A stretch of DNA of 64,000 nt. Source: a virus. The notes below the pieces were generated by a model. That model did not search any database. It was given only the letters and a program-made list of their open reading frames with translations, and was not told the DNA's origin. The stretch lies in IMG/VR virus record IMGVR_UViG_3300032753_001573, positions 91,689-155,688 of that record, one strand, 5' to 3'. Both the position numbers and the translations under genes were made by a program. Positions 4,811 to 46,483 of this stretch are shown one piece after another; position 1 is the first letter of the stretch, and each line of letters begins with the position of its first letter.

Positions 4811-4862
4811 ATTTAATTATAGGGTCTTTACATTCTCATAAACCTGTGCTATAAATAAAATA

Positions 4863-5196: not shown

Positions 5197-5224
5197 AAAG
5201 AGGGCGGGAAACCGTCCTCTTTTT
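5197..5224 (+). terminator. intrinsic terminator after tmRNA
   Basis: AAAGAGGGCGG-GAAA-CCGTCCTCTTT followed by T-run. Confidence 0.85.
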
Positions 5225-22260: not shown

Positions 22261-22653
22261 TTATAAATTGTTACGTTGTTTTAAGTGTACTCTAAAGCTA
22301 CCTGCAGGACCATTCTTTCGACCTAGAGGTTCCCATTCTCTAATAGTTTTTGTAGCTCTGCACCAACTTTCAAATTCTCTAGCTATTTGGCCGCTTTTGC
22401 CAGTTATGACCACAACACTCTTGTCGCCATTCTTGTGATGCTGATCTATAAACTCTTTGAATCGCAGCCACGCTTCGTTTACAGGAAATCCGTGCAGATC
22501 CAGCTTGCGAGTAGTAACTTCGCTATAGGTATATTTTGGTATGAACGTGTCTCTGATATCTCGCAAATGAGATATATACCGTTGCCACATATCTCGATCT
22601 CTAGGATTAAGGGTATCTGAGGACTCGTTCATTGAATATACCTTGTGTTGCAT
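22261..22653 (-). CDS. Smr (small MutS-related) domain protein
   Basis: KLDLHG..V.EA...F..FI, VVVITGKSG, G.F.V.LK. Confidence 0.88.
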   Translation of the reverse strand: MQHKVYSMNESSDTLNPRDRDMWQRYISHLRDIRDTFIPKYTYSEVTTRKLDLHGFPVNEAWLRFKEFIDQHHKNGDKSVVVITGKSGQIAREFESWCRATKTIREWEPLGRKNGPAGSFRVHLKQRNNL

Positions 22654-22666
22654 CTATAAATAATAG

Positions 22667-23095
22667 ATGCAGATGAGAGAATTAATCAAGATACTAGAAC
22701 AAGTAAATGATAGCAGTAACAAAATAACACGTTCTGCATTCATATACCTGCCTCCAAAAACCCCCAAAGACAAATTCGCACAATGCAGTACCTGCCAATT
22801 GTTTTTACCAAATGCACAACGTTGCGGAATTTTTGGTAAGAGTGATGTTGTAAAGGCATCTGCATCTTGCGGATTATATCTACATGGCAAACCGCATGAT
22901 GATCAACCAATACAAGACATTGTCACACCAGAACAAGCAGGATATGTTGATCATGCTGTTAGATGTGAAAATTGCAGTTGGTACAAAGATCGGCAATGCG
23001 ATCTATTCAAACTGTTGAATAGCAAAATACCAGATGCATTTGATTGCGATCCAAACGTTGAACCACAGGCTTGTTGCAATGCCTGGCAAGAATGA
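22667..23095 (+). CDS. Cys-rich protein with two HiPIP-like repeats
   Basis: CSTCQLF..C...V....SC..Y and CENCSWY..C...V....CC.AW. Confidence 0.55.
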   Translation: MQMRELIKILEQVNDSSNKITRSAFIYLPPKTPKDKFAQCSTCQLFLPNAQRCGIFGKSDVVKASASCGLYLHGKPHDDQPIQDIVTPEQAGYVDHAVRCENCSWYKDRQCDLFKLLNSKIPDAFDCDPNVEPQACCNAWQE

Positions 23096-23132
23096 CATTT
23101 GTATAATTTCAATATTTGAACTATAATATAAG

Positions 23133-23183
23133 AGAGGACACGACACTCAACCCTCATAAAATATTCTGGTGTCATCTTAGGAG
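23133..23183 (+). promoter_or_regulatory. candidate preQ1-I-like pseudoknot riboswitch
   Basis: GAGG/CCTC stem, A-rich ATAAAATA tail, loop GACAC pairs with GTGTC next to AGGAG; behind TTGTAT-N17-TATAAT; upstream of the queD operon. Confidence 0.45.
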
Positions 23184-23190
23184 AACATAG

Positions 23191-23370
23191 ATGGCAAAAA
23201 TCATTATAACAACTGATTCAGGTAAGACTTTTACAGTTGACACCCTAGACAAATATTTGATGGATACAAGTGATCTTGGATTGCAGTCTACAATTGAGTT
23301 GTTTAAAATTATAGCAGAAGAAGTAGCAGCATTACATAATGCTGAAAAAGATTCTGTGGGAGTTAAGTGA
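23191..23370 (+). CDS. 59-aa hypothetical protein coupled to queD (below the ORF-track cutoff)
   Basis: AGGAG RBS; MAKIIITTDSGKTF...; TGATG overlap with queD. Confidence 0.65.
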   Translation: MAKIIITTDSGKTFTVDTLDKYLMDTSDLGLQSTIELFKIIAEEVAALHNAEKDSVGVK

Positions 23371-23840
23371 TGGCCAAGTACGTATCGACAAAAACTTACA
23401 AGCAGCTAGGACCAGTAGCATATAGGCAGTGGCGTGCAGACAGTCATTGTAATCAGATCCATGGATATGCACTCAGCTTCCATTTTGAGTTTGAATCAGA
23501 TACACTTGATGTTAGAAACTGGGTAATGGATTTTGGTGGATTAAAGCCATTGAAGAGTTTGTTAGAAGATTGGTTTGACCATACTCTACTAGTAGCAGCC
23601 GATGATCCACAGCGCGAACACCTGCTCAATCTAGGCAAGCTTGGGCTAGCTAAAATTACAGAAGTAGAAAAGACTGGATGCGAAGGGCTAGCAGATTTCC
23701 TCTATGAATATGTAAACACTATATTTTTGCCAAATTACGGTGAGAAAGATCGCATATGGTGTAGCAGAGTTGAAGTAAGAGAGACTGATGCCAACATGGC
23801 CATGAGGATCGGCCATAGAGAAGATCGAGAATTTGATTAA
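23370..23840 (+). CDS. queD: 6-carboxy-tetrahydropterin synthase / PTPS family
   Basis: HCNQIHGY, WVMDFGGLK, FDHTLL, GCEGLA, VEVRET. Confidence 0.88.
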   Translation: MAKYVSTKTYKQLGPVAYRQWRADSHCNQIHGYALSFHFEFESDTLDVRNWVMDFGGLKPLKSLLEDWFDHTLLVAADDPQREHLLNLGKLGLAKITEVEKTGCEGLADFLYEYVNTIFLPNYGEKDRIWCSRVEVRETDANMAMRIGHREDREFD

Positions 23841-24069
23841 ATTAAACGTTTACCATCTAAAATACTGATAAAATAATATATGCCCGGCTAATATTATGCG
23901 CGGGTATATATTTCTGCGTCACTGTCTTAAATACAGTTGATGTCGAACGTGAAGGACTATAAAACGCCGCAATATTTATATAATTTTCCAATGATATCAA
24001 CAAGATATTTTTGTAATATTGACAGGCAGTCCTGCGCAGTATAAAACGTAAAAAAAGGAAGATTTAAGC

Positions 24070-24603
24070 ATGATAAAATTGATGAACGTTGCAGCCATCT
24101 GCACCTTATTATTAACTGCCGCTGCTAGTGCAGCTGGTTATGATAGCGAATTGGAGGCATTGAACAAGAGATTTGTCGTTACTGATCCAGAAATTGCAAA
24201 TGCCGATGCGTCGTCTAAAAGACAGATGACTTGCATTGCTCTAAATGTTTATTTTGAATCTAGAGGTACAATTGAACGACAGCAAGAAGGTGTAGCTTGG
24301 GTAGTCAAGAATAGATCTAAGTCAAATAAGTTTGCAGGATCAAATATGTGTGATGTAGTATTTCAGAGAATGGGAGGATTTCCGCAATTTGCATGGATCG
24401 CACATCCAAGTAAGGGATATGAATCTGGATCTTGGAAGCAAGCCCAGGCTATTGCAAAAGGTGTATTTTATGATAGAATACCGGATCCAACCCACGGCGC
24501 ATTAAGTTTTCATGAAGTTAATCTTCCTGCAAAGTTTAGGAAATATGACAGAGGCGGATTGAGAATTGGAAGCCACGTATTCTATAACATAGCTGCTAAA
24601 TAG
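24070..24603 (+). CDS. cell wall hydrolase (SleB / Hydrolase_2)
   Basis: Signal peptide; CIALNVYFESRG, V..VVKNR, QFAW, DPTHGALSFH, IGSHVFY. Confidence 0.9.
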   Translation: MIKLMNVAAICTLLLTAAASAAGYDSELEALNKRFVVTDPEIANADASSKRQMTCIALNVYFESRGTIERQQEGVAWVVKNRSKSNKFAGSNMCDVVFQRMGGFPQFAWIAHPSKGYESGSWKQAQAIAKGVFYDRIPDPTHGALSFHEVNLPAKFRKYDRGGLRIGSHVFYNIAAK

Positions 24604-24632
24604 TTGGCAATTATCATCGAGGAATAAAGCCA

Positions 24633-25772
24633 ATGAGCATTTATCAGCCAATACCAACTTATTACAGAGTTACCTGGACAGCAAATAGCCCAACCGACTA
24701 TACTGGTACAGGAGGTGTAACTCCATTCGGCAGTGTGCAGATGAATAACACTGTAGCAATCACTAGCACTGCTAGCAATCCCACTATGACCAACGGCGAC
24801 ATTATCATGTGCAACGATACTATGATAGGTCCGTTCACTGGTTCTAGCGGTTTAAGTGATGTGATTAACGCTTTCAACGCTATGACACAGTTTACAGGTG
24901 TAATGGCATCACAAGACTTCACTGGTTATCTAACTCTGCAGAGCATTGATCCAGTGAGCGCATTTATCAGTCTCAGCAACTTCAGTGGTACACCGCTAAC
25001 CACTTTGGGATTGCCAGATGGTGGATATGGTTTAGGTAATCCAATCTACGGCGGTAGTTTCTCAAGTCCAAATAATAATGATAATGTTGTTATTAACGGA
25101 ACAACTGTTACCTTTGTTACCGGTTCACTGACTATAGCTGGTGTGATACGCACTATCAACAGTTACACGGCAAGCACCAATGTTGCTGCTATACAATTTG
25201 GTAACAGAATACAACTTAACAGTCTAGATGGAGATCCAATATACTTTGGTGCAGGATCATCCGGAACCAGTGCTGCTATAGGATTTGCCGATAATACAGC
25301 ATACGGCGGCAACATGACTCTAGCACAAGCTGTTGCGATAGATCAAGGTAGGCTTCGTTGGAAAGGTATGGTAGATACCGTTGAAACCACTCTTACACCA
25401 GTCTATTGGGATTCTATTGCTATGACAGGTAGTACTACAGACGGCGACAGTTTACCAACTACGCTTAGTTGGACTATAGGTGTCAGTCATCCAGAACAGT
25501 TGGTAACAGCTACTCTTGCAGGCGAGCCAGAAACAGTTGGCACTATGCTGTATGGTACTGCTGCATTGACTCGTATGCTAGCTAGAGCATTAACTGGTAC
25601 TTGGTCTGAGAATAGGAAGGTATATAACAATACTTTAACTGTAAGGGGTGCGTATGCTCTTAGAGAGAATCCCATAATCATACAGTTTGTCACAGCTGGT
25701 CCTCTTGATACTCCTGCCAATATACATAAAATAGAAGGCAACTTGGACGTTGAGTTGATACCAAATACTTGA
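24633..25772 (+). CDS. putative virion structural protein
   Basis: Gly/Thr/Asn-rich with an internally repeated domain; TAAATA at 24597 and a GAGG RBS. Confidence 0.65.
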   Translation: MSIYQPIPTYYRVTWTANSPTDYTGTGGVTPFGSVQMNNTVAITSTASNPTMTNGDIIMCNDTMIGPFTGSSGLSDVINAFNAMTQFTGVMASQDFTGYLTLQSIDPVSAFISLSNFSGTPLTTLGLPDGGYGLGNPIYGGSFSSPNNNDNVVINGTTVTFVTGSLTIAGVIRTINSYTASTNVAAIQFGNRIQLNSLDGDPIYFGAGSSGTSAAIGFADNTAYGGNMTLAQAVAIDQGRLRWKGMVDTVETTLTPVYWDSIAMTGSTTDGDSLPTTLSWTIGVSHPEQLVTATLAGEPETVGTMLYGTAALTRMLARALTGTWSENRKVYNNTLTVRGAYALRENPIIIQFVTAGPLDTPANIHKIEGNLDVELIPNT

Positions 25773-25821
25773 TGTATTGCTATCACATGTGGTATAATAG
25801 CATCATTGTGATTGGATAAAT

Positions 25822-27582
25822 TTGATGTTAACAACCATTTTGATGTTCATAGCTGCTGTTTGTCTAAGTGCTATAGCTGGTTATTACAGCGTAGTAGGAA
25901 TGACCAGCATCTTCAGTGGAGCACTAATTCCTATCATATTGATGACAGGAACACTAGAAGCTAGCAAACTGATAGTAGCTAGTTGGTTATCAAACAATTG
26001 GAACAAAACGCATCTAGTATTGAGGTCATATTTAACTGTAGCTGTTTTGATACTCATGTTTATAACCAGCATGGGTATATTTGGCTTCTTGAGTAAATCG
26101 CACCTAGAGCAAGCTGCTGCAGGTGCAGAGCAACAAGCTCAGATACAACGTATTAAGGAAGAAATTGATAGACAGAATTCTATAATATCTGCAGCCAAGC
26201 AGAAGTTGTCTAATCTAAGTGCCGACAGCTCAGCTGGCGATGTTGCTATCGATGAACGTATAGCACAGGCCAACAAGATAATTGACGATGCTAATCAACG
26301 TGCGCAACCTCAAATAGATGCTCAGCAGAAGATTATAGATCAAGAAAACTCTAAAATTGAATTGAGAGTTAAAAGTGTACAGACACAAATTGATGATATA
26401 GACAAGCAAGTTGCTACTTTAGATAGCATAGTCAAATCATTAGTAGATCAAGGTAAAACTGGACCTGCGCAATACAAGCAGCAGCAGCAAAAATCAGATA
26501 GAGACCGTCTAGCAAAGCAAAAAGCTGATTTGATAAAACAGATAGATGATATACGTAATGCTCCAGACGGCATAATCGATGCTGCAAAATCTGAAATCGC
26601 AAAGGTAAGATCCAGTGTTGATACTGAAGTTAAACAGGCTAAGGATACTATCAACAAAATGACTGCCCAACTTGGGCAGAATGTTGATACCAACAAAGTA
26701 CAGGTTGAATCTGATCAACTCAATGCCAAGATAAAAGAAGCCAACGATCAGTTAGATCAGTTAACAACTACAAAGTTTAAGTTAGAGAGTGATAATCGCA
26801 AACTGGAAGTAGAAGTTGGACCAATCAAATACATAGCCCAGATGATCTACGGAGACAGCATAGATCAGAACCTATTAGAACGGGCAGTTCGCTGGGTTAT
26901 TATGACACTGATATTTGTGTTTGATCCGCTTGCAGTGCTGATGTTGATAGCCGCTAATCAAAATATCGCCAGATGGAAAAAATCTAGATTAGGACCTAAT
27001 GAAAATGACGTTGATTTAGATCAAATTAAAGATATAAAAGAATCACAGCAGTTTGGTAACTCTTTAGCAATTGAAATAAATCTCAAAGAAGTATCGTATG
27101 AAACTGATGCCATTTTGGTTAATGAGATTGAAAAAGCTTTATCTGATATACATGAATCTAATGTAGAAATATTGGAAGATCTAACACCAATGGAATTTCC
27201 AAGTATTTCAACTGACATACAGAATTCTGCTGTCGATACACAAATTCAGGATGACAAATCTTCAAAAATAGTGTTTAATGATTTTGATGAGGAGCAGTCG
27301 AAGTATGTTACGATTGAGCAGCAAGAACCAACTGCAGCTGACGGATTTAAATCTCCGGTTGAACAGCAAATTGTCGAAGAGCTTTCGGTAGTTGTTGCGG
27401 ATACTGAACAAATACTTGCTAAATTACAGCAGGACCATGCTGATGAAAATTTACCACAATCAACCAATATTATTGAACAACAGACTGTTGAAGAACTATC
27501 TGTTGCTGTGGCAGACACTGAAAAATTACTTGCTAAACTACAGCAGGCACATGCAGATCGTATGAGGAAATATACTCCTTGA
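25822..27582 (+). CDS. membrane-anchored coiled-coil protein
   Basis: Three N-terminal TM segments (LMFITSMGIFGFLSKSH), long coiled coil, EVGPIKYIA, IFVFDPLAV TM, acidic tail with a duplicated 28-aa unit. Confidence 0.8.
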   Translation: MMLTTILMFIAAVCLSAIAGYYSVVGMTSIFSGALIPIILMTGTLEASKLIVASWLSNNWNKTHLVLRSYLTVAVLILMFITSMGIFGFLSKSHLEQAAAGAEQQAQIQRIKEEIDRQNSIISAAKQKLSNLSADSSAGDVAIDERIAQANKIIDDANQRAQPQIDAQQKIIDQENSKIELRVKSVQTQIDDIDKQVATLDSIVKSLVDQGKTGPAQYKQQQQKSDRDRLAKQKADLIKQIDDIRNAPDGIIDAAKSEIAKVRSSVDTEVKQAKDTINKMTAQLGQNVDTNKVQVESDQLNAKIKEANDQLDQLTTTKFKLESDNRKLEVEVGPIKYIAQMIYGDSIDQNLLERAVRWVIMTLIFVFDPLAVLMLIAANQNIARWKKSRLGPNENDVDLDQIKDIKESQQFGNSLAIEINLKEVSYETDAILVNEIEKALSDIHESNVEILEDLTPMEFPSISTDIQNSAVDTQIQDDKSSKIVFNDFDEEQSKYVTIEQQEPTAADGFKSPVEQQIVEELSVVVADTEQILAKLQQDHADENLPQSTNIIEQQTVEELSVAVADTEKLLAKLQQAHADRMRKYTP

Positions 27583-27615
27583 CCTCTTTGATCAATAAAT
27601 AGAAATTATAGGAAA

Positions 27616-28881
27616 ATGAATATGGCAGGACAGAACAAGATCCTACGTCAATGCAGCTTCTGCGGCAAAAACCAGCTACAAGTGCAGAAACTAATCAATG
27701 GCAATGATGTGTATATTTGCAATGAATGTGTAGATCTTTGTCACAGCATATTGTCGCAGGATGACGACTCAAAGCCGTCAAAGACTGACAAACGTATGAT
27801 ACCAGAGGTTATCAAATCCTATTTGGATGAAAGAGTAATAGGCCAAGATACAGCAAAGACTATATTGAGTGTAGCAATTTACAACCACCTACAAAGGGTA
27901 GAGAATCCTATTGTAGACGGAGTAGAATTAGATAAGAGCAACCTATTGTTCATTGGACCCAGTGGTAGTGGTAAGACTTATTTGATACAAAATGTCAGTA
28001 AGCTACTTGATATTCCTTTTGTAATTATCGATGCTACCAGTCTAACTGAAAGTGGTTATGTTGGATTAGATGTTGAGGATTGTATAGCACGTTTATATCA
28101 AGCATCAGGTGGGGATATTGATAAAACTCAGCGTGGCATTGTTTATATAGACGAGATTGACAAGAAAGGTCGTAAAGGAGAGAACGCTAGTATTACTCGC
28201 GATGTAAGCGGCGAGGGTGTGCAGCAAGCTCTTCTGAAAATGATCGAAGGTTGCGAAGTCAAAGTGCCTCCGCAGGGAGGTCGCAAGAATCCTCACGGCG
28301 AATATGTAACAGTGGATACCAAAAACATCTTGTTTATATTGGGCGGAGCGTTTGTTGGTATTGAAGATGTTGTTAGCAAGCGTCTAGATACCAATAACAC
28401 TGGTATAGGATTTATGGCCACAATGCCTGGTGATAAACCAGACCCAGAACAAGTTCGCAAGATGATGAGGTCTGTAAAACATGAGGATGTAGCTAAGTTT
28501 GGTTTGATTCCAGAATTAATTGGACGTCTACCAATTATTGTTCCGTTTGATCACCTAAAAGAAGAGGATTTGATCAGAATTCTAACAGAGCCTAAGAATG
28601 CTGTAGTCAAGCAATTCCAAAAACAATTTGAACTTGATAATGTTAGGTTAGAGTTTAGGGATGCTGCATTGAAAGCGATAGCAGAACAAGCTATCGAAAA
28701 GAAAACTGGTGCTCGAGGATTGCGTAGCATCATAGAGAACATCCTGTTGCCCGCGCAGTTTGAATTACCGTCTCTGCAGGACAAGGGTGTAAGTACCGTG
28801 GTGGTCACGGAAAGCTGCGTCACTGATGGTCAGGACCCAGTTAAAATTTACAGGAGTGAAACAGAAGTTGCCAATAATTAA
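27616..28881 (+). CDS. clpX: ATP-dependent Clp protease ATP-binding subunit ClpX
   Basis: CSFCGK zinc domain, [12 protein letters not shown] pore loop, [27 protein letters not shown] loop, GARGLR. Confidence 0.97.
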
Positions 28882-29446
28882 TGGTGTTGCGAATCCTAGA
28901 GACCGCAGGCAGGCTGGAGATCTAATAAAGGATCAATATGCTGCAAATTATAACATACGACATCCGCAAGTTCGGTTAGTTGGAGATGATGGTTCTAATC
29001 ATGGTGTCATAGATACAAAACAAGCTATTGCTATGGCTCAGTTAGAAGATTTGGATCTAGTGCTAGTAAATACTTCTGCAAATCCTCCTGTCGCAAGGAT
29101 ATGCGACTATAACAAGTTCATCTATGAGCAAAAGCGACACAAGAAAGAGCAAGATCGCAAGCTCAGAGAGCATGCCATCGTTGTCAAAGAAATACAGTTG
29201 CGACCCAGCATCAGCAATCATGATCTAGATATCAAGCTACAGCATGCTCGAGAATGGTTGGCAGACAATTGCAAGATCAAGATTGTGGTCAAATTCAGAG
29301 GGCGTGAGATGGCCTACAAATCCAAAGGATTTGAGATGATCAACAACTTTGTTGACAAGCTCGGTTGCAAGATTGAAAAGGCACCCGATATGAATAACAA
29401 TACTTTGATAGCTATGGTAGCACCTGGTGCCAAAACTACCAAATAA
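28868..29446 (+). CDS. infC: translation initiation factor IF-3; start uncertain (TTG 28868 or ATT 28877)
   Basis: NYNIR..QVRLV, DLDLVLV, PPVARICDYNKFIYE, KEIQLRP.I..HDL..K, FRGRE. Confidence 0.93.
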   Translation: MPIINGVANPRDRRQAGDLIKDQYAANYNIRHPQVRLVGDDGSNHGVIDTKQAIAMAQLEDLDLVLVNTSANPPVARICDYNKFIYEQKRHKKEQDRKLREHAIVVKEIQLRPSISNHDLDIKLQHAREWLADNCKIKIVVKFRGREMAYKSKGFEMINNFVDKLGCKIEKAPDMNNNTLIAMVAPGAKTTK

Positions 29447-29506
29447 ATTTGACAATCACTTGTTAGAAATGGTATACATAAACGATCCAATTAGGAATGA
29501 GGAATC

Positions 29507-29818
29507 ATGAGCGACGATATTTTCTTTGGCAAACGCGGCATATCAGTTAAGGTTTTTAATAATAACATTAACGGTGCCCTAACGCAGCTTAAACGCAAGG
29601 TTAATGCCGAAGGCATCAATAAGGAACTACGCAAGCGAGAATGCTTTGAACCAAACACTGCAAAACGTAGGCGCAAGTTGGCTGAAGCACAGATACGTTG
29701 GAAGAAGAAGTACGATCAAATTATGGAAGTACCTAAGCCCAAACGCAAGCTGAAGAAGAGGCAGTTGAAACAGCAGCAGGCGTCTGCAAATAATTCTTCT
29801 ACAACTGTTCAGACATAA
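29507..29818 (+). CDS. rpsU: 30S ribosomal protein bS21 with a C-terminal extension
   Basis: V.V.NNNINGAL..LKRKV..EGI.KELRKRECFEPNTAKRRRK. Confidence 0.88.
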   Translation: MSDDIFFGKRGISVKVFNNNINGALTQLKRKVNAEGINKELRKRECFEPNTAKRRRKLAEAQIRWKKKYDQIMEVPKPKRKLKKRQLKQQQASANNSSTTVQT

Positions 29819-29852
29819 TATCTAGTATCACAACAAAGTTTGTATCATGCTT

Positions 29853-29882
29853 ATGTGGACGAGATAAACTCGTCCACATTTT
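29853..29882 (+). terminator. terminator after the clpX-infC-rpsU block
   Basis: ATGTGGACGAG-ATAAA-CTCGTCCACAT-TTT. Confidence 0.8.
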
Positions 29883-29928
29883 CTTATCTAGGTCTTGACA
29901 ATTGTTACTTCAATGACTACATATATTG

Positions 29929-29981
29929 TGTAGGATGCCAATAGGGTCCTACATTAACTTTCTTGCTTAACAAAGGAGAAA
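29929..29981 (+). promoter_or_regulatory. ROSE-like RNA thermometer of hsp20
   Basis: TTTCTT-G-CTT/AAGGAGAAA hairpin (UUGCU anti-SD with bulged G) preceded by a second hairpin; RpoH-like CTTGAC-N16-ACTACAT upstream. Confidence 0.75.
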
Positions 29982-29985
29982 CACT

Positions 29986-30484
29986 ATGTACGATAACACA
30001 CTTGATTCAATCATCAATCATCAACCAGCACCTCCGCACGCTCAATCGCAACTTTATTGGTTTTGAACCAACTCTAAGGCGTTTGACGCTAAGCGACTCG
30101 TTAGAAAACTCTGGAGGATATCCTCCTTATAATCTTGAAGTGATTGCAGATAATCACTATAGGATTACACTTGCGGTTGCTGGATTCAAGATGGAAGAGC
30201 TTGATATCACATTAGCCGACAACAAGCTAACCATTAGTGGTACCACATCTCAACGTAGCGACAACGATGTTAGAACATTTGTACACAAGGGTATAGCAGA
30301 ACGTAGCTTTACTAGAAGCTTTATCCTAGCTGATCATGTGAACATCACTGGTGCTGAGTTGGAAAATGGTCTACTCACTATCGATCTAGAACAGGAAATA
30401 CCAGAGGCATTGAAGCCTCGAAAGATTGCGATCAAACACAAAGACGTTATTGACGCAACACCTGTTAAATCGTCAAAGGCTTGA
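29986..30484 (+). pseudogene. small heat-shock protein Hsp20/IbpA, frameshifted by a 7-bp tandem duplication
   Basis: YPPYN, ITLAVAGF, HKGIAERSFTRSF.L, AELENGLL.IDL...IPE..KPRKI; the RBS-backed ATG 29986 is out of frame because CAATCAT occurs twice at 30008-30021. Confidence 0.85.
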
Positions 30485-30540
30485 TTGACACGCACCCATA
30501 TGATGCCTACAATTAGGCATATGAAATAAAGGATGGAGCC

Positions 30541-30852
30541 ATGGTAGAGACCAAGAATGATGTAGTTGTAGCTGTCATTGAAAAGGTTGCCATGGCTCCT
30601 CCTAGAATGTGGAATGTGGTATTATTCAATGATGAAAAGACCACAATGGAATTTGTAGTTCTTGTTCTGATGCAGATCTTCTATAAGAGTTTTGAAGAAG
30701 CTCAAGATATCATGATGAGTATACATGAGAATGGCAAGGGAGTTGCTGGCACTTATTCACTTGAGGTAGCATCTGCTAAACGAGACGACACTCTCAGCGT
30801 AGCAAGAACTAATGGATTTCCACTCGTAGCAGAAATTGAGCCTAACGAATGA
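30541..30852 (+). CDS. clpS: Clp protease adaptor ClpS
   Basis: PPRMWNVVLFNDEKTTMEFVV.VL..IF, IHENGKGVAGTY..EVA, GFPL. Confidence 0.93.
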   Translation: MVETKNDVVVAVIEKVAMAPPRMWNVVLFNDEKTTMEFVVLVLMQIFYKSFEEAQDIMMSIHENGKGVAGTYSLEVASAKRDDTLSVARTNGFPLVAEIEPNE

Positions 30853-31106
30853 TCAACGATTTTGACAAATTAAAATCTCAGCTCAATGAAGGTTGGGCTA
30901 GAGTAGAGTTTACCAAAGTAGATGGCTCTAATCGCAGCATGCTCTGTACTCGAAATTTTGCTGAAATACCAGAGTCTCAAGTTCCTCATGGTACAGGAAA
31001 GAAACCAAATGATTCTGTGCTAGGCGTGTTTGACCTAGAGAAGCAAGCTTGGCGTAGCATTCGAATTGATAACATACAGAGCTGGCAACCCGAACGCAAC
31101 CTTTGA
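30849..31106 (+). CDS. WYL-like / SH3-fold conserved T4-like protein
   Basis: VEFTKVDGSNRSMLCT...VFDLEKQAWRSIR. Confidence 0.8.
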   Translation: MINDFDKLKSQLNEGWARVEFTKVDGSNRSMLCTRNFAEIPESQVPHGTGKKPNDSVLGVFDLEKQAWRSIRIDNIQSWQPERNL

Positions 31107-31114
31107 GGTCTATT

Positions 31115-31327
31115 ATGGGGCACTATGATGATCAATATGAAGAAGATTATCGCTTAGAACGTGAAAGACGAGAGCGAATAGAAAAGGCTAAGATAGCCAA
31201 AGGATATGAAAAGGTTCCTGAACCTCTAAGAGATTTTCTAAAACAAGAATGGATTCATGCGGATCAATTAAAGACGTTGAGGCGTTGGTTGAATACGTGT
31301 CCTTACTGTAAATTAGTAGACGATTGA
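31115..31327 (+). CDS. hypothetical protein
   Basis: GAGG RBS; MGHYDDQYE start. Confidence 0.6.
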   Translation: MGHYDDQYEEDYRLERERRERIEKAKIAKGYEKVPEPLRDFLKQEWIHADQLKTLRRWLNTCPYCKLVDD

Positions 31328-31352
31328 GCACGCGATATAGCAGGAGAATTTT

Positions 31353-31799
31353 ATGGATAACCCAATTTTGAGAATGGACCTACCAGCCGGTATGGTTCTG
31401 ATAGAATGCTTTCCAGATCTAGCACCCAATCATGTAGCGCAGATACTAGATCAAGCCAACAGAGGATTATACGACGGTACGGTTTTCCATAGAGTGATAT
31501 CTGGATTTATGGCACAGGGCGGATGGACAAAACAGCAATTGCCGCAACTTCAGGCAGAGTTCAATGACTATCCTCATGTTGAGGGTACTTGCAGCATGGC
31601 TCGTACCAATGACCCTAATAGTGCTAGTGATCAATTCTTCATCTGTTTCAATGACTGCAGATTCCTTGATCGGAATTATACAGTTTGGGGTAAAGTCATA
31701 TATGGCATGAAGCATATACACGATGGTATTGCTAAGGGTGAACCGCCGGCGGAACCCACTCCAATTGTTCGCATGCGTCATGTAGGTACCATTAATTGA
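31353..31799 (+). CDS. cyclophilin-type peptidyl-prolyl isomerase
   Basis: APNHV, YDGTVFHRVISGFMAQGG, SMART.DPNSA..QFFI, FLD..YTVWGKV..GM. Confidence 0.95.
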   Translation: MDNPILRMDLPAGMVLIECFPDLAPNHVAQILDQANRGLYDGTVFHRVISGFMAQGGWTKQQLPQLQAEFNDYPHVEGTCSMARTNDPNSASDQFFICFNDCRFLDRNYTVWGKVIYGMKHIHDGIAKGEPPAEPTPIVRMRHVGTIN

Positions 31800-31831
31800 T
31801 ATGTTATTATTATAACAATAAATAATTTGCT

Positions 31832-32461
31832 ATGAAAGCAATTGAGAGAATACATTTAGAAATAACGAGCAGATGCACGTTAGCTTGTCCACAATGTCCT
31901 CGCACCGAATTTAAGGATTTAAATATTATATCTGATATGCCTATAGAGACAGCAGCAGCGGCATGTAAAGGATATAATCATATGTACATAGTTGGAAATC
32001 ATGGAGATCCTATATATCATCCTAAGTTTCATGAACTAATGTCTAGATTAAGGGAGGATAATCCTCTTTTGACATTTTATTTTCATACTAACGGAAGTTT
32101 CAGAAGTGAAAAATGGTGGATAAAAACAGCTAATATACTCAATCATCTAGATGAGATAGTTTTCAGTATAGATGGTTTACCTGGTAATGATCTGTATAGA
32201 GTTAATTCTAGATGGTCCTCTATAGAATTGGGTATCAAAACTTTACGTAAGCATAATACAAAATTAAAGATGACTTGGAAGTGGATACATTTCAAATATA
32301 ATCAAAATGATGTAGAATCTGCTATAGATATTGCTAAAGATCTAGGTTTTGATCAATTCTGTTTCGTTGAGAGCGACAGGACTCAGGACGGACATTGGTT
32401 AACACCGGAGATTTCCTGGAAATCAGTGAAGGATAAGTTATATGCCAGTTGTAGAAGCTAA
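31832..32461 (+). CDS. radical SAM protein
   Basis: CTLACPQC (CxxxCxxC), GNHGDP, HTNG, FSIDGL. Confidence 0.9.
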   Translation: MKAIERIHLEITSRCTLACPQCPRTEFKDLNIISDMPIETAAAACKGYNHMYIVGNHGDPIYHPKFHELMSRLREDNPLLTFYFHTNGSFRSEKWWIKTANILNHLDEIVFSIDGLPGNDLYRVNSRWSSIELGIKTLRKHNTKLKMTWKWIHFKYNQNDVESAIDIAKDLGFDQFCFVESDRTQDGHWLTPEISWKSVKDKLYASCRS

Positions 32462-32801
32462 ATGCGCAAGAGGAGATTCTTCACCTTTTGTTAATCCGGA
32501 TGGGTATTATTTTCCTTGCTGTTGGGTAATGAATATTCCTGAAGTTATAACTCTAAAAGAGTTTCTCGGCGATACATTTGAAGAGTTAAACATTAACAAT
32601 TCTAGCTTAGAAGAGGCTATGAATAGCAATGCTATGAAAAGAATAAGAGATAGCTGGGAAGATGGTAGTTTTCAACCATGTGTATGGTATTGCAAACAAA
32701 AAAATAATTTGTATAATGTACAAAATGAGCGAGAGTTTTTTATAGATTTGAAAAAATGGTCTAACCTAGAAGATTATAAAAATCTTAATTCCGGCTCTTG
32801 A
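32442..32801 (+). CDS. stand-alone SPASM-like Fe-S domain protein
   Basis: KC.......VNPDG...PCCW...C...C. Confidence 0.75.
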   Translation: MPVVEAKCARGDSSPFVNPDGYYFPCCWVMNIPEVITLKEFLGDTFEELNINNSSLEEAMNSNAMKRIRDSWEDGSFQPCVWYCKQKNNLYNVQNEREFFIDLKKWSNLEDYKNLNSGS

Positions 32802-32834
32802 AATTCACTAATAAGTTTATTATATCTAATTATG

Positions 32835-32884
32835 TAACAGTGCTTGAATAAGGCTGTTGCAAGCGATCTTGCTTCAAAAGGAGA
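32835..32884 (+). promoter_or_regulatory. ROSE-like RNA thermometer of dnaK
   Basis: TCTT-G-CTT-CAA-AAG-GAGA SD hairpin plus an upstream bulged-G hairpin; CTTGAA-N16-ATTATAT RpoH-like promoter at 32797-32825. Confidence 0.65.
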
Positions 32885-32889
32885 CAAAC

Positions 32890-34731
<1,842 letters not shown>

Positions 34732-34742
34732 CAGTGATATAA

Positions 34743-34775
34743 TTTCATAGGGTATGTAACCCATACCCTATGAAA
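34743..34775. terminator. bidirectional terminator between convergent genes
   Basis: TTTCATAGGGTATG-TAACC-CATACCCTATGAAA. Confidence 0.8.
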
Positions 34776-34783
34776 TCTTTCAT

Positions 34784-35347
34784 TTAACTTAATTTTAAAT
34801 TGATAATATCAGCAGTTTGCTGATTCAATACAACCTCGTAATGATTTACCTTGAGGTCTATTAGTTCTATATCTTGTCTAGCTCGTTGACTAGACACAGT
34901 AACTACTCCGTCGTTAGTCCCAATTATCCACGGGACACTACCTGATATAGTTACTACATTGCACCAAGGCCATTTTATTGCTACTTTGCTGGCATAGCTA
35001 AATGGCCAGCTAGTTGGTCCAACGTCGTGCAATAGCTGGTACCACGGTAATATAGCTTTGGCATAAAATGGAATATGATGACCACCATACGGTGTTGAAA
35101 GTGTAACTCCGCCAGTTACCTTAGTTCCAAAATAATCTGCTAGATGCAGCGCATATATTCCGCCTAGGCTATGTGCTATAAATTGCATGTCTTTTAGATT
35201 TGATAAATCGCTCTTCATCATTTCTAGATTATTCTCAAATCCTCGATGACTGTCGTATGAAACCAGTATGCCATCTCCGCATTTGCTGCGTATGTAATTC
35301 CAACTGTTAACGGTGGCATTGGCACCGTGAATATAAACTTTTGCCAT
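34784..35347 (-). CDS. alpha/beta hydrolase
   Basis: YIHG, AHSLGG nucleophile elbow, NDGVV, NHYE. Confidence 0.88.
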   Translation of the reverse strand: MAKVYIHGANATVNSWNYIRSKCGDGILVSYDSHRGFENNLEMMKSDLSNLKDMQFIAHSLGGIYALHLADYFGTKVTGGVTLSTPYGGHHIPFYAKAILPWYQLLHDVGPTSWPFSYASKVAIKWPWCNVVTISGSVPWIIGTNDGVVTVSSQRARQDIELIDLKVNHYEVVLNQQTADIINLKLS

Positions 35348-35413
35348 TTGTGATATTTAGCGGTTGACAATTGATATTTAGGTGTTATTGTTCAAACAAT
35401 GAGGAGTAACTAC

Positions 35414-35528
35414 ATGAAAAATCCTGTAGCCAAAGACCTGCGCACTCCAAAATATAAGCCTCGCATTGTACGTAACAAAAAAAGCATATACTCGCAAATC
35501 CAAGCACAAGGTAAACCGCAATGGTTAA
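35414..35528 (+). pseudogene. ArfA-like basic peptide, frameshifted at an A7 tract (35477-35483)
   Basis: Promoter and GAGGAG RBS; MKNPVAKDLRTPKYKPRIVRNKK, then in the +1 frame AYTRKSKHKVNRNG*, which overlaps the next ATG. Confidence 0.6.
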
Positions 35529-35757
35529 GAAAAAGAATTCACATTTATCAAATGTAATTTTGATGATATGTTACAAAGCAATGGTGCTATTATTGCCATT
35601 AGCTATGATGCTCACAATGGTCTTTATTAGACTTAGTATGGAGGATGATCTAGCTACGTTTACTGTAGCTCTCCTCACGGCTGGCATTCTCGTTCAAATT
35701 TACGAACATCTTCTGTTAGAAGAGTTTGAATATCGCAGAAAGTTTGTGGGTAATTAA
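35521..35757 (+). CDS. small 2-TM membrane protein
   Basis: Hydrophobic helices. Confidence 0.6.
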   Translation: MVKKKNSHLSNVILMICYKAMVLLLPLAMMLTMVFIRLSMEDDLATFTVALLTAGILVQIYEHLLLEEFEYRRKFVGN

Positions 35758-35809
35758 TTTTGGTTGACACGCTTCTTATAGATGCTATATTGCTCACATA
35801 GGAGGCGTT

Positions 35810-36961
35810 ATGGACATCAGTTTTATCACACAAGACCTGCGTGATCTGCGTGCTCATTTTAACCAGCATGGTTTTGATCTGCGACTGGTTGGTGGTGTCG
35901 TGCGTGACACGCTGGCGGGACTGCCTCCCAAGGATCTGGACCTGGCTACGGATGCCAAACCCCATGAGCAAGTTGAAATCTACAACGCTCACGGTTATCG
36001 CTGGATTGGCACGGGCATGGATCACGGCACGATTACGGTCATGCTGGGTGACGAGCCGCATGAGATCACCAGCCTGCGCGTTGACGTTGAGACGGATGGC
36101 AGGCATGCCAAGGTTGCATTTACGAGCGATTGGGAAGCTGACCTGGGTCGCAGGGACCTGACGATCAATGCTATGGCTATGACGTTTGACGGCAGACTGA
36201 TTGATCCGTTTGGTGGTGCTGACGATCTAGCCAACGGTGTTGTGAGATTTGTTGGCAACGCCGAAGCTAGGATCCGAGAAGACTATCTGAGGATCCTGCG
36301 GTTCTATCGCTTCTACGGCAGGTTTGGCCGCGGCGGCATTGATAGCCAAACGCGACAAGCTATTGCGTCCAATGTGTACGGTCTGCAACAGATCAGCAGG
36401 GAGCGCATCTGGAGCGAATTTCAAAAGATTCTGCCGCAAGCTGCATCTCCTGCTATCATGATTGATATGGTACAAGGTGTGGGCATTAATCATCACATTG
36501 ATCTGCCCTATAACAATGTCAGTTGGCCCAGATGGTGGCTGCACAAGGCTCTGACCATCACGAACGATCCTGCTGTACTGATGGCAGCATGGTGCTGTTA
36601 TGATCCGGTGAACGTGGAAAGTGTTGCTAAAAGTTGGAAATGGAGCAATGCGGACCGTGATCATGCAATGTGGCTGTGTAATAATGTCAGGTGCAAACGC
36701 GACCTGCGTTGGCTGATTGCTGTTGAGGGTGCTCCCAGGGAGTGGGTTGCTGAACTGGCTGCTCTGGAGGAGCGCGACGGTTGGGAACAGAATGCCCTGG
36801 TTCAATGGGTCTTTGCTCCGTTCCCTGTTAACGGTAACGATCTGATTGCAGCAGGTGTCAAACCCGGTGCAGCTATGGGCAAGATGCTGCGCATGCTGAA
36901 AGAGTCTTGGGCTCACAGCAGCTACTCTGCTACCAAAGAAGAGCTGCTGAAACTGATCTAG
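35810..36961 (+). CDS. cca: CCA tRNA nucleotidyltransferase / poly(A) polymerase family
   Basis: LVGGVVRD, DLDLATDA, EITSLRVD, RRDLTINAM, EDYLRILRFYRF, ISRERIW.E. Confidence 0.9.
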   Translation: MDISFITQDLRDLRAHFNQHGFDLRLVGGVVRDTLAGLPPKDLDLATDAKPHEQVEIYNAHGYRWIGTGMDHGTITVMLGDEPHEITSLRVDVETDGRHAKVAFTSDWEADLGRRDLTINAMAMTFDGRLIDPFGGADDLANGVVRFVGNAEARIREDYLRILRFYRFYGRFGRGGIDSQTRQAIASNVYGLQQISRERIWSEFQKILPQAASPAIMIDMVQGVGINHHIDLPYNNVSWPRWWLHKALTITNDPAVLMAAWCCYDPVNVESVAKSWKWSNADRDHAMWLCNNVRCKRDLRWLIAVEGAPREWVAELAALEERDGWEQNALVQWVFAPFPVNGNDLIAAGVKPGAAMGKMLRMLKESWAHSSYSATKEELLKLI

Positions 36962-45984: not shown

Positions 45985-46016
45985 GATAAGGTGGGGAAAT
46001 CCCACCTTATCATTTT
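45985..46016 (+). terminator. intrinsic terminator
   Basis: ATGATAAGGTGGG-GAAAT-CCCACCTTATCAT-TTT. Confidence 0.85.
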
Positions 46017-46034
46017 ATACAAATTACCGAGGCA

Positions 46035-46473: not shown

Positions 46474-46483
46474 GTTAAAACAC

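What the first reader, a model, noticed from the sequence alone, without database searches (positions are those of the whole stretch)
22261..36961. Possible multi-route phage ribosome-rescue system: tmRNA, ArfA-like peptide and Smr protein, with ClpX/ClpS
Seen: a stand-alone Smr protein (DLHG, ITGK), an unannotated ArfA-like peptide, tmRNA (4863-5196), a CCA enzyme, IF3, bS21, ClpX and ClpS within about 32 kb. Established: SmrB-type nucleases cut mRNA at collided ribosomes; tmRNA or ArfA rescues non-stop complexes; ClpXP removes tagged products. Inference: a collision-to-clearance pathway that keeps ribosomes cycling when host mRNA is degraded or defence RNases fire. SmpB, ClpP and RF2 are not in this window.
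Basis: partly seen in the sequence, partly recalled or inferred. Interest (0 to 1): 0.75.

Follow-up and report, generated by a model that had tools for sequence, protein, structure and literature searches.

The report
Huge-phage ribosome-rescue gene kit, loosely linked
A freshwater giant phage carries its own tmRNA, a SmrB-like nuclease and a tiny relative of the bacterial rescue factor ArfA. These sit beside chaperone and protease genes, but they are separately inherited accessories rather than one system, and the ArfA-like gene is frameshifted here.

Summary
The window is the last 64 kb of a 155,688-bp viral record, about 36% complete, from lake metagenomes. Its cultured relatives are the alphaproteobacterial jumbo phages Atu_ph07 and Phosso.

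- **tmRNA:** Rfam finds a two-piece alpha-type tmRNA at 4823-5199.
- **Smr:** the protein at 22261-22653 (-) keeps the catalytic DLHG. It has an N-terminal helix that partly matches the SmrB ribosome-hook motif.
- **ArfA-like peptide:** the gene at 35414-35557 has no direct Pfam hit. A profile built only from proteins that pass Pfam's ArfA cut-off finds it as the sole significant hit in the window (E 5e-7). A profile of its own family hits only ArfA chains at E <= 0.011 in the PDB. It belongs to a large, mostly phage-borne branch that lacks the KGKGS loop and overlaps DUF7230.
- **Frameshift:** the family's conserved basic tail lies in the +1 frame behind an A7 run. This was found in 0 of 115 relatives.

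The "system" reading is only partly supported.

- Smr was found in all six related phage records searched, tmRNA in four, the ArfA-like gene in two, and SmpB in none.
- ClpX and ClpS belong to a conserved ClpX-IF3-bS21-Hsp20-ClpS-PPIase-DnaK block.
- This scan found similar kits and ArfA-like phage genes before on other DNA.

The parts
4823..5199 (+). Two-piece (circularly permuted, alpha-type) tmRNA gene. The acceptor piece ends in an encoded ACCA at 4925-4928. An intervening segment runs about 4929-5027. The coding piece starts GGGGUGG at 5028.
   Evidence: Rfam RF01849 90.2 bits and RF04321 67.6 bits. The G3.U70 pair and the CCA end were read from the alignment. Relatives Phosso and G003 score 107-108 bits.
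5112..5156 (+). tmRNA tag reading frame. The resume codon is GUC, the tag reads VNDNVAPYEMSLAV, and the stop is UGA.
   Evidence: Read in register with the model's GCA-AAC-GAC-AAC resume region. Phosso and G003 tags start ANDN and end ALAA.
22261..22653 (-). Stand-alone Smr-domain protein, 130 aa. Gene callers start it at Met8, giving 123 aa. It has an N-terminal helix at 17-32, a linker, and an Smr fold at 50-124, with DLHG at 52-55 and GKSG at 85-88.
   Evidence: Pfam Smr E 3.9e-11. AlphaFold model with pLDDT 81. Foldseek top hits are the MutS2 Smr domain, YdaL, and SmrB on the disome at rank 11. Family alignment A3.
27616..28881 (+). ClpX unfoldase with zinc finger, GYVG pore loop, IGF loop for ClpP docking, and RKN in place of RKH.
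   Evidence: NCBIfam ClpX equivalog 554 bits against a cut-off of 359. Pfam. Alignment A6.
28826..29446 (+). Translation initiation factor IF3. It overlaps the end of clpX. The true start is probably later than the listed ATG.
   Evidence: Pfam IF3_N and IF3_C. NCBIfam infC 161.6 bits. The ClpX-IF3 pair is conserved in Phosso, Atu_ph07 and an uncultured relative.
29507..29818 (+). Ribosomal protein bS21.
   Evidence: Pfam Ribosomal_S21 E 1.1e-13. NCBIfam S21p above its cut-off.
29963..30484 (+). Small heat-shock protein (Hsp20).
   Evidence: Pfam HSP20 E 6.8e-19.
30541..30852 (+). ClpS adaptor.
   Evidence: Pfam ClpS E 4.9e-28.
31353..31799 (+). Cyclophilin-type peptidyl-prolyl isomerase.
   Evidence: Pfam Pro_isomerase E 4.8e-33.
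32857..34731 (+). DnaK (Hsp70).
   Evidence: Pfam HSP70 E 1.4e-262. NCBIfam DnaK equivalog.
35364..35391 (+). Promoter-like site TTGACA-16-TATTGT with an upstream TG, ahead of the ArfA-like gene.
   Evidence: Consensus scan, 10 of 12 matches. This is a pattern match only.
35414..35557 (+). ArfA-like mini-gene as it reads in the zero frame, 47 aa. The first 23 residues carry the family core NPVAKDLRTPKYK..R.V..KK. The remaining 24 residues are not family-like.
   Evidence: An ArfA-only profile gives 26.3 bits, E 5e-7, the only significant hit among 1687 six-frame segments. The family profile hits ArfA chains in the PDB. BLASTP gives 1e-7 to a Pelagibacteraceae ArfA that passes Pfam's cut-off.
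35477..35483 (+). A7 homopolymer at which the family frame and the genomic frame part.
   Evidence: Sequence. Identical in contigs of four runs from four studies, with no gaps.
35484..35528 (+). +1-frame continuation AYTRKSKHK..., the family's conserved basic tail, ending in TAA at 35526-35528, just after the ATG of the next ORF.
   Evidence: The family profile score rises from 52.1 to 64.1 bits when read through. The family has Y, R and K at these positions in 105, 106 and 91 of 124 members.
35810..36961 (+). CCA-type tRNA nucleotidyltransferase, with a strong promoter-like site at 35764-35791.
   Evidence: Pfam PolyA_pol head, RNA-binding and tRNA_NucTran2_2 domains. The best NCBIfam hit is the CCA enzyme at 194 bits, below its cut-off; PcnB scores 107 bits. 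Promoter scan 11 of 12.

Best explanation
**What it is.** This is part of the accessory translation and proteostasis region of an uncultured freshwater huge phage. CheckV completeness implies a genome of about 430 kb. It belongs to the Atu_ph07/Phosso lineage, and its host is probably an alphaproteobacterium. The region holds three separately acquired ribosome-rescue parts.

1. **tmRNA.** This is a two-piece tmRNA. Since no SmpB is encoded, it would have to work with host SmpB. It would resume translation on stalled non-stop ribosomes and add a 14-residue tag.
2. **SmrB-like nuclease.** This is a small Smr nuclease with the catalytic DxH motif and an N-terminal helix like the SmrB hook. It would dock on collided ribosomes and cut the mRNA, creating non-stop ends.
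3. **ArfA homologue.** This mini-gene belongs to a large, mainly phage-borne branch of ArfA that lacks the KGKGS loop. Its relatives are inferred to sense an empty mRNA channel and recruit RF2.

In this genome a one-base longer A-run puts the conserved basic tail out of frame. The gene is therefore probably impaired, or expressed in canonical form only through rare slippage.

**The other genes.** ClpX, ClpS, DnaK, Hsp20 and the PPIase form a conserved protein-quality block together with IF3 and bS21. ClpP is encoded elsewhere in complete relatives.

**Shown versus inferred.**
- Shown: identity of the parts, synteny, and the co-occurrence pattern.
- Inferred: the biochemical roles, and the benefit of keeping ribosomes cycling when messages are broken during infection.
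For: **Lineage and habitat**
- ClpX is 52-55% identical to Phosso and Atu_ph07, with syntenic Smr, QueD, ClpX-IF3, bS21, sHsp and ClpS.
- An uncultured 258,743-bp contig shows the same order from Smr to DnaK.
- The stretch is held by lake and freshwater metagenome runs.

**tmRNA**
- Rfam scores are above the gathering cut-offs.
- The G3.U70 pair, the encoded CCA and an open tag frame are present.
- Relatives carry the same RNA.
- The AP-J-162 paper lists a tmRNA for that phage and none for Atu_ph07 (PMC11242549).

**Smr**
- Pfam Smr domain with DLHG.
- The model shows a helix at 17-32 followed by an Smr fold.
- Family alignment A3 has an invariant Trp preceded by acidic residues. The full '--xxxa' motif is in 5 of 20 members and one acidic residue in 14 of 20, including the window.
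- In SmrB this helix hooks uS2, and an Smr-only truncation does not bind ribosomes (bioRxiv 10.1101/2021.08.16.456513).

**ArfA link**
- A profile built only from Pfam-passing ArfA proteins scores the peptide at 26.3 bits, E 5e-7; the next best segment scores 5.4 bits.
- The family profile searched against 177,635 PDB sequences returns six ArfA chains as its top six hits, E 0.0036-0.011.
- hhalign gives 56.6% probability, E 1.1e-4.
- Pelagibacteraceae peptides that combine the same N-terminal core with KGKGS pass Pfam's ArfA cut-off at 26.4-32.1 bits.
- The family has 540 clusters in an exhaustive search and at least 334 viral contigs.

**Not one unit:** see the co-occurrence results.
Against: - No function was tested.
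- The peptide has no direct Pfam, NCBIfam or PHROGs hit.
- The peptide's conserved tail is out of frame, so the third route may be dead in this phage.
- The window's own Smr has only one of the two acidic residues of the hook motif.
- Smr folds also occur in DNA-nicking proteins; the top structural hits include MutS2 and YdaL.
- The tmRNA tag begins with Val and ends in LAV, unlike the ANDN...ALAA tags of relatives. Whether it is a ClpXP degron is unknown.
- The host is not identified.
- The record is only 36% complete.
Confidence: 0.6

Rival explanations
1. The genes form one coordinated pathway, selected as a unit. Smr cuts at collisions, tmRNA or the ArfA-like peptide frees the ribosome, and ClpX/ClpS with ClpP clears the products.
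For: - All parts lie within 32 kb.
- Most of the protein-gene order (Smr to DnaK) is conserved in relatives.
- Complete relatives encode ClpP.
- In other phage contigs with the ArfA-like gene, 3 of 10 also carry an alpha-type tmRNA-like RNA.
- In bacteria, Smr contacts bS21 on the disome, and S21-Smr operons exist.
Against: - The three rescue parts do not co-occur. Phosso and G003 have tmRNA but no ArfA-like gene. Atu_ph07 has the ArfA-like gene at an unrelated position and no tmRNA.
- Smr is absent from 10 of 10 other ArfA-like-bearing contigs.
- No record encodes SmpB.
- The genes are on both strands, with unrelated genes between them: QueD, a cell-wall hydrolase and two large unknown proteins.
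- The ArfA-like gene is frameshifted.
Confidence: 0.15
2. The ArfA-like gene is a decaying pseudogene in this phage. Only tmRNA, and perhaps Smr, remain as working rescue parts.
For: - The family's conserved Y-x-R-K-x-K-H-K tail lies in the +1 frame after an A7 run, and the family score rises by 12 bits when read through.
- None of 115 other loci shows a canonical tail in another frame, so this is not a conserved recoding signal.
- The A7 run is the same in four assemblies.
Against: - The zero frame stays open for 24 more codons.
- It keeps a net charge of +6 over the 22 residues after the core, against a family mean of 6.6.
- The promoter-like site and Shine-Dalgarno sequence are intact.
- 46 of 115 relatives also have non-canonical in-frame tails, so the tail may be dispensable.
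- A7 runs allow some transcriptional or ribosomal slippage (general knowledge; not tested here).
Confidence: 0.45
3. The Smr protein is a DNA endonuclease for phage recombination, repair or host-DNA attack, unrelated to ribosomes.
For: - The weak NCBIfam hits are to MutS2 and to the DNA endonuclease SmrA.
- Structural neighbours include MutS2 Smr domains and YdaL.
- The gene lies in a region that also holds topoisomerase genes.
Against: - B. subtilis MutS2 Smr is itself seen on collided disomes (PDB 8qpp and 8r55).
- The family has an SmrB-like N-terminal helix with an invariant aromatic residue, a feature tied to ribosome binding.
- In Phosso and Atu_ph07 the gene lies close to the tRNA nucleotidyltransferase gene, and in Phosso next to a polynucleotide kinase gene. 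That is an RNA-end context.
Confidence: 0.2
4. The genes are a chance accumulation of host-derived translation genes, typical of huge phages, with no particular role in rescue.
For: - Huge phages commonly carry tmRNA, SmpB, release factors, RRF, IF3 and S21 (PMC7162821).
- The window also holds TilS, arginase, glycosyltransferases and other unrelated genes.
Against: - Smr is kept in all six related records searched.
- Gene order is conserved over large evolutionary distance; ClpX is only 51-55% identical.
- The ArfA-like family is far more common in viral contigs than in bacterial genomes: at least 334 viral contigs against 37 hits in 185,579 species genomes.
Confidence: 0.15

Closest known systems
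ArfA (YhdL, Pfam PF03889), the RF2-dependent alternative ribosome-rescue factor; solved on the ribosome in PDB 5U4I, 5MDV and 5H5U
   Same: - Small basic peptide.
- Shared pattern N-x-[VI]-x-x-x-L-x-x-P-x-[YF]-[KR]-x-R-[VI]-x-x-x-KK.
- In the family's canonical frame, shared tail Y-x-RK-x-KH.
- ArfA chains are the six top PDB hits of the family profile, at E 0.0036-0.011.
- Pelagibacteraceae ArfA proteins bridge the two groups.
   Different: - No KGKGS loop.
- No direct Pfam ArfA hit for the window peptide.
- The tail is out of frame in this genome.
- No hairpin or terminator inside the ORF that would give a non-stop message.
- Mainly phage-borne.
Pfam DUF7230 (PF23876), a family of unknown function
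   Same: 72 of 136 relatives of the window peptide hit it. The nearest relative P0002 passes its cut-off at 29 bits, and the Atu_ph07 peptide scores 26.4 bits.
   Different: The window peptide itself is not reported by the model. Pfam records no function and no link to ArfA. A full-text search for the name found no paper.
Pelagibacter phage HTVC027P gp30, called ArfA in ISME Commun 2025 (PMC12753301)
   Same: It shares the core NPVAKEVRTPKYK. BLASTP to the window peptide gives 1e-8.
   Different: gp30 keeps a KKGRGS loop and scores 20.2 bits on Pfam ArfA, below the cut-off of 25.5. It comes from a 57.6-kb phage whose genome was not searched here for tmRNA or Smr.
E. coli SmrB (YfcN), the collision-triggered mRNA endonuclease
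   Same: - Stand-alone Smr domain with the DxH motif.
- An N-terminal helix carrying an acidic-xxx-aromatic motif, followed by a flexible linker.
   Different: - 130 aa against 183 aa, with a much shorter linker.
- GKSG instead of GHG.
- The window copy has one acidic residue, not two.
- Sequence similarity is confined to the Smr domain and is weak: hhalign E 1e-3, probability 20%.
Two-piece tmRNA of Alphaproteobacteria (Rfam RF01849) and the tmRNAs of Sinorhizobium phages Phosso and AP-J-162
   Same: Permuted gene order, tRNA-like domain, NDN start of the tag, and a position in a related genome lineage.
   Different: The resume codon is Val and the tag ends in LAV instead of ALAA. The model score is lower, 90 bits against 107-108.
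Translation gene sets of huge phages (Al-Shayeb et al. 2020, PMC7162821)
   Same: tmRNA, IF3, S21 and tRNA enzymes encoded by a phage of more than 200 kb.
   Different: That paper lists SmpB, release factors and RRF. In the passage retrieved (only 'tmRNA' and 'SmpB' were searched) it does not list Smr or ArfA-like genes. Here SmpB, RF and RRF are absent from the 155-kb record.

Membership tests
tmRNA, two-piece alpha type (RF01849 / RF04321) | Covariance-model score above the gathering threshold | tested here: met
   90.2 bits against 50 and 67.6 bits against 47.
tmRNA, two-piece alpha type (RF01849 / RF04321) | tRNA-Ala-like acceptor stem with a G3.U70 pair and a 3' CCA; acceptor piece upstream of the coding piece | tested here: met
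   GGGGUGG pairs with CCACUCC, followed by ACCA at 4925-4928. The order is acceptor then coding (read from the alignment).
tmRNA, two-piece alpha type (RF01849 / RF04321) | Tag frame that starts with Ala and ends in a hydrophobic ALAA-type degron | tested here: inconclusive
   The frame is open for 14 codons with a stop, but it starts with Val and ends in LAV. Phosso and G003 end in ALAA.
tmRNA, two-piece alpha type (RF01849 / RF04321) | SmpB partner | tested here: not met
   No SmpB in this record, Phosso, Atu_ph07 or G001-G003. Host SmpB would be needed.
SmrB-type Smr nuclease | Smr domain with the catalytic DxH motif | tested here: met
   Pfam 43.4 bits against 25.7. D52-L-H54 is invariant or nearly so in 20 relatives.
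SmrB-type Smr nuclease | GxG RNA-binding loop | tested here: inconclusive
   The loop reads G85-K-S-G88, with one extra residue. Mutation of the central residue (GHG to GAG) had no effect in SmrB.
SmrB-type Smr nuclease | N-terminal helix with two acidic residues, three variable residues and one aromatic residue | tested here: inconclusive
   The model predicts a helix at 17-32 and Trp23 is invariant. The full motif is in 5 of 20 relatives, and one acidic residue in 14 of 20, including the window (RD-RDM-W).
SmrB-type Smr nuclease | Binds collided ribosomes and cuts mRNA | not testable with these tools
   This needs biochemistry.
ArfA (PF03889) | Pfam model score above the cut-off of 25.5 bits | tested here: not met
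   No hit for the window peptide or anywhere in the record, even at E 10.
ArfA (PF03889) | Significant match to a profile of bona fide ArfA proteins | tested here: met
   A profile of 12 enterobacterial and 3 Pelagibacteraceae ArfA proteins, all above Pfam's cut-off, gives 26.3 bits, E 5e-7. It is the unique hit among 1687 segments.
ArfA (PF03889) | KGKGS loop | tested here: not met
   Absent from the window peptide and from all 136 aligned relatives.
ArfA (PF03889) | Basic C-terminal tail (Y-x-RK-x-KH) in frame | tested here: not met
   The tail lies in the +1 frame after the A7 run at 35477-35483.
ArfA (PF03889) | Expression from a non-stop mRNA (internal hairpin or terminator) | tested here: not met
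   The fold z-score is -0.55, and no terminator-like site lies inside the ORF.
ArfA (PF03889) | RF2-dependent release on non-stop ribosomes | not testable with these tools
This needs an in vitro release assay.
DUF7230 (PF23876) | Pfam model score above the cut-off of 27 bits | tested here: not met
   The window peptide is not reported. Close relatives pass or nearly pass: P0002 at 29 bits and the Atu_ph07 peptide at 26.4 bits.
ClpX | Equivalog score, zinc finger, GYVG pore loop and IGF loop | tested here: met
   554 bits against 359. zf-C4_ClpX. GYVG and GIGF are present, and RKH reads RKN.
CCA-adding enzyme | Class II nucleotidyltransferase head plus tRNA-binding body; equivalog score | tested here: inconclusive
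   Pfam domains are met. The best NCBIfam model is the CCA enzyme at 194 bits, below its cut-off of 290. PcnB is lower at 107 bits.

The most novel reading that the evidence does not exclude
The phage brings two rescue activities into an alphaproteobacterial host. One is a collision-sensing SmrB-like nuclease. The other is an RF2-recruiting ArfA-type factor. A survey of 2,376 alphaproteobacterial genomes did not detect either one. The A7 run in the ArfA-like gene would act as a slippage switch that doses the canonical factor, much as non-stop mRNA doses bacterial ArfA. Together with the phage tmRNA this would be a virus-encoded, multi-route answer to ribosome stalling caused by message decay or by RNA-cutting defence systems.
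Probability: 0.1. Interest if true: 0.8.

Novelty: new variant of a known kind. Interest (0 to 1): 0.5.

Why it matters
Huge phages are already known to carry translation genes, including tmRNA. Two things add to that picture here.

- **ArfA branch:** a large, mainly phage-borne branch of the ArfA family is currently filed as DUF7230 with no function. Pelagibacteraceae chromosomes carry bridging forms, although a recent survey reports no arfA in Alphaproteobacteria.
- **SmrB-like nuclease:** this nuclease is kept throughout the Atu_ph07/Phosso lineage.

If these proteins act on ribosomes, stalled ribosomes are a real bottleneck for phage growth, or a target of host defence.

The idea can be tested in cultured, genetically tractable pairs. 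Atu_ph07 on Agrobacterium has Smr and the ArfA-like gene but no tmRNA. Phosso on Sinorhizobium has Smr and tmRNA but no ArfA-like gene.

Tried and rejected
- ARAGORN found no tmRNA; Rfam did.
- Direct family searches of the peptide gave nothing: Pfam, NCBIfam, PHROGs and phmmer against the PDB.
- A first profile comparison with low-diversity alignments was weak (hhalign 3.9%). It improved after an exhaustive search widened the family.
- phmmer of the Smr protein against the PDB did not reach SmrB.
- The search for related loci with the single Smr sequence found only the window itself.
- Non-stop mRNA design: no significant fold (z -0.55) and no terminator-like site inside the ORF.
- Conserved recoding at the A-run: 0 of 115 other loci have a canonical tail in another frame.
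- Assembly error at the A7 run: contigs of four runs agree with no gaps. These are contigs, not raw reads.
- Matched tag and unfoldase: RKN in ClpX is invariant in four phages, including Phosso, whose tag ends in ALAA. It therefore does not co-vary with the LAV tag.
- Polynucleotide kinase of Phosso: no match in this record, which shows nothing because the record is incomplete.
- Complex prediction (peptide with RF2) was not available.
- No RNA holder was listed among public runs.

Full report
**Setting.** The window is bases 91689-155688 of a 155,688-bp IMG/VR virus record that CheckV rates 36% complete, which implies a genome of about 430 kb. The stretch is held by lake and freshwater metagenome runs from several studies.

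The best cultured matches of its ClpX are Sinorhizobium phage Phosso (469 kb, 55% identity) and Agrobacterium phage Atu_ph07 (490 kb, 52%). Both infect Alphaproteobacteria, which fits the alpha-type tmRNA.

- Pfam and NCBIfam confirm Smr, ClpX, IF3, bS21, ClpS and a CCA-type nucleotidyltransferase. They also confirm Hsp20, a WYL_2 protein, a cyclophilin, a radical SAM/SPASM pair, DnaK and, upstream, TilS.
- Rfam finds a circularly permuted, alpha-type tmRNA at 4823-5199. ARAGORN does not.
- SmpB, ClpP, RF-1/RF-2 domains (which would include ArfB), Pth and RRF are absent from the whole 155-kb record.

**tmRNA.** I read the following from the model alignment.

- The acceptor stem GGGGUGG/CCACUCC keeps the G3.U70 alanine identity pair.
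- ACCA is encoded at 4925-4928.
- About 99 nt separate the acceptor piece from the coding piece.
- The tag frame at 5112-5156 reads VNDNVAPYEMSLAV.

Phosso and the complete 480-kb IMG/VR relative G003 have the same RNA at 107-108 bits, with tags that start ANDN and end ALAA. The window's tag is therefore the odd one. None of the six related records encodes SmpB, so these RNAs must use the host protein.

**Smr.** The 130-aa protein has 22 relatives of 113-133 aa. Alignment A3 (20 sequences, window included) shows invariant or near-invariant L-D-L-H-G, VVITGKSGQI and a Trp at position 23. The AlphaFold model (pLDDT 81) has a helix at 17-32, a low-confidence linker, and a beta-alpha-beta-alpha-beta-beta Smr fold at 50-124. 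Foldseek returns the following:

- MutS2 Smr domains, including those seen on B. subtilis collided disomes;
- YdaL;
- human Smr;
- SmrB on the E. coli disome, at rank 11.

The SmrB paper defines the proteobacterial clade by an N-terminal helix with two acidic residues, three variable residues and one aromatic residue. That helix hooks uS2, and an Smr-only truncation does not bind ribosomes. The DxH motif is essential (bioRxiv 10.1101/2021.08.16.456513).

In the phage family the aromatic residue is invariant. The full motif occurs in 5 of 20 members and one acidic residue in 14 of 20; the window reads RD-RDM-W. This is a resemblance in architecture, not proof of ribosome binding.

In Phosso and Atu_ph07 the smr gene lies close to the tRNA nucleotidyltransferase gene, and in Phosso next to a polynucleotide kinase gene.

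**ArfA-like peptide.** The ORF at 35414-35557 has a GAGGAG Shine-Dalgarno sequence and a TTGACA-16-TATTGT site upstream. It gets no direct hit in Pfam, NCBIfam, PHROGs or the PDB.

Word-based and exhaustive searches show it belongs to a large family of peptides, mostly 36-90 aa, with 540 clusters at E <= 1e-3. The consensus is RNPVAKDLRTPKYK.RVV.SKK.Y.RK.KHK. Of 136 members, 72 hit Pfam DUF7230 and 2 hit ArfA weakly.

Four results tie the family to ArfA.

1. Its profile, searched against all 177,635 distinct PDB sequences, returns six ArfA chains as the top six hits, at E 0.0036-0.011. The next-best hits are uS14 chains, from E 0.18.
2. hhalign against enterobacterial ArfA gives 56.6% probability, E 1.1e-4, in the expected register.
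3. Chromosomal Pelagibacteraceae peptides of 34-38 aa combine the same N-terminal core with the ArfA KGKGS loop. They pass Pfam's ArfA cut-off at 26.4-32.1 bits. They sit between a response-regulator gene and housekeeping genes, not in a prophage.
4. The window peptide matches one of these Pelagibacteraceae peptides at BLASTP 1e-7.

HTVC027P gp30, which a 2025 paper calls ArfA, is another bridge.

As a direct test I built a profile only from proteins that pass Pfam's ArfA cut-off. I scored all 1687 six-frame segments of the window against it. This ORF scores 26.3 bits (E 5e-7) and the next best scores 5.4 bits.

I therefore accept "ArfA-like" as homology, to a branch that lacks the KGKGS loop. 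The family is mainly viral: at least 334 IMG/VR contigs, against 37 hits in 185,579 species genomes. The genomic hits are mostly Pelagibacterales, SAR86 and other Alphaproteobacteria.

**Frameshift.** The same search revealed that the family's conserved tail is encoded in the +1 frame.

- After the A7 run at 35477-35483, the +1 frame reads AYTRKSKHK... and stops at 35526-35528.
- The zero frame reads an unrelated 24 residues.
- Reading through raises the family score from 52.1 to 64.1 bits.
- The A7 run is identical, without gaps, in contigs from four runs of four studies.
- None of 115 other loci has a canonical tail in another frame.

This is therefore a lineage-specific change, not a family-wide recoding signal. 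I cannot tell decay from low-level slippage. I found no internal hairpin or terminator that would give a non-stop message, although other agents of this scan reported that design in other members.

**Is it a system?** Synteny is real. A 258,743-bp uncultured relative has the order Smr, PTPS, cell-wall hydrolase, two large unknown proteins, ClpX, IF3, bS21, Hsp20, ClpS, WYL_2, PPIase, DnaK. Phosso shares much of it. The rescue parts, however, do not travel together.

| Record | Smr | tmRNA | ArfA-like | SmpB | ClpP |
|---|---|---|---|---|---|
| This record (36% complete) | yes | yes | yes | no | no |
| Phosso | yes | yes | no | no | 2 |
| Atu_ph07 | yes | no | yes, at an unrelated position | no | 1 |
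| G003 (480 kb, complete) | yes | yes | no | no | not searched |
| G001 (fragment) | yes | yes, cut by the contig end | no | no | not searched |
| G002 (fragment) | yes | no | no | no | not searched |

Among ten other phage contigs with the ArfA-like gene, none has Smr. Three have an alpha-type tmRNA-like match, one of them above the gathering score.

ClpX and ClpS sit in a block with chaperones, IF3 and bS21. The AP-J-162 paper notes the same ClpX-IF3-topoisomerase neighbourhood.

I conclude that this is a kit of separately inherited accessories. The lineage keeps Smr and usually tmRNA. The ArfA-like gene is a sporadic addition.

**Comparison with what is known.**

- Huge phages are known to carry tmRNA, SmpB, release factors, RRF, IF3 and S21 (PMC7162821).
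- A phage ArfA has been named once (PMC12753301).
- Phosso's GenBank record already labels its Smr/MutS family protein.
- I found no paper on phage Smr proteins or on DUF7230.
- A survey of 15,259 genomes reports arfA and smrB in 0 of 2,376 Alphaproteobacteria (PMC11633108). That survey used nucleotide profiles, and it missed the Pelagibacteraceae ArfA proteins seen here.
- This scan has reported similar kits and ArfA-like phage genes on other DNA.

**Verdict.**

- The pathway reading is partly supported.
- This is a new variant of a known kind, of moderate interest.
- Clean experiments are available in Atu_ph07 and Phosso.

Noticed in passing
window 5112-5156 and 27616-28881; L001, L002, L018: The tmRNA tag starts with Val and ends in LAV, while Phosso and G003 tags end in ALAA. 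ClpX reads GGRKNP (RKN instead of RKH) in the window, an uncultured relative, Phosso and Atu_ph07 alike. The RKN change therefore does not co-vary with the odd tag.
   Followed up: partly
L110:1427-1534, L118:2992-3108, L122:2995-3099: Pelagibacteraceae chromosomes encode 34-38-aa peptides that pass Pfam's ArfA cut-off, next to a response-regulator gene. A 2024 survey reports no arfA in Alphaproteobacteria.
   Followed up: partly
window 35521-35757 (+): A 78-aa ORF has a hydrophobic sequence that by eye suggests two transmembrane segments. Its ATG lies 3 nt before the canonical-frame stop of the ArfA-like gene (ATGgtTAA). This looks like former translational coupling. It has no family hit apart from one non-significant NCBIfam match (E 0.027).
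   Followed up: no
window 31832-32801 (+): A radical SAM and SPASM gene pair lies between the cyclophilin gene and dnaK. In the 258,743-bp relative those two genes are adjacent, so the pair looks like an insertion.
   Followed up: no
window 22667-23095 (+): A Cys-rich 142-aa protein lies between smr and queD, with no Pfam or PHROGs hit.
   Followed up: no
window 46000-53300: G+C content rises to 0.53-0.60, against about 0.40 elsewhere. This stretch holds a 1562-aa ORF on the minus strand at 48514-53202.
   Followed up: no
L006 (Phosso 349553-350242): The Phosso tmRNA gene spans 690 nt because its intervening segment is about 370 nt long, compared with about 99 nt in the window.
   Followed up: no
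window 35417-35454, run X5 record 5: A 151-nt contig from the same lake matches only the conserved core, with different flanks. A second organism there carries another member of the ArfA-like family.
   Followed up: no
window 3413-4330, 5593-9260, 9324-10259: An arginase-family gene, the two topoisomerase II subunits and TilS lie between the tmRNA region and the Smr gene (the arginase gene lies just upstream of the tmRNA).
   Followed up: no
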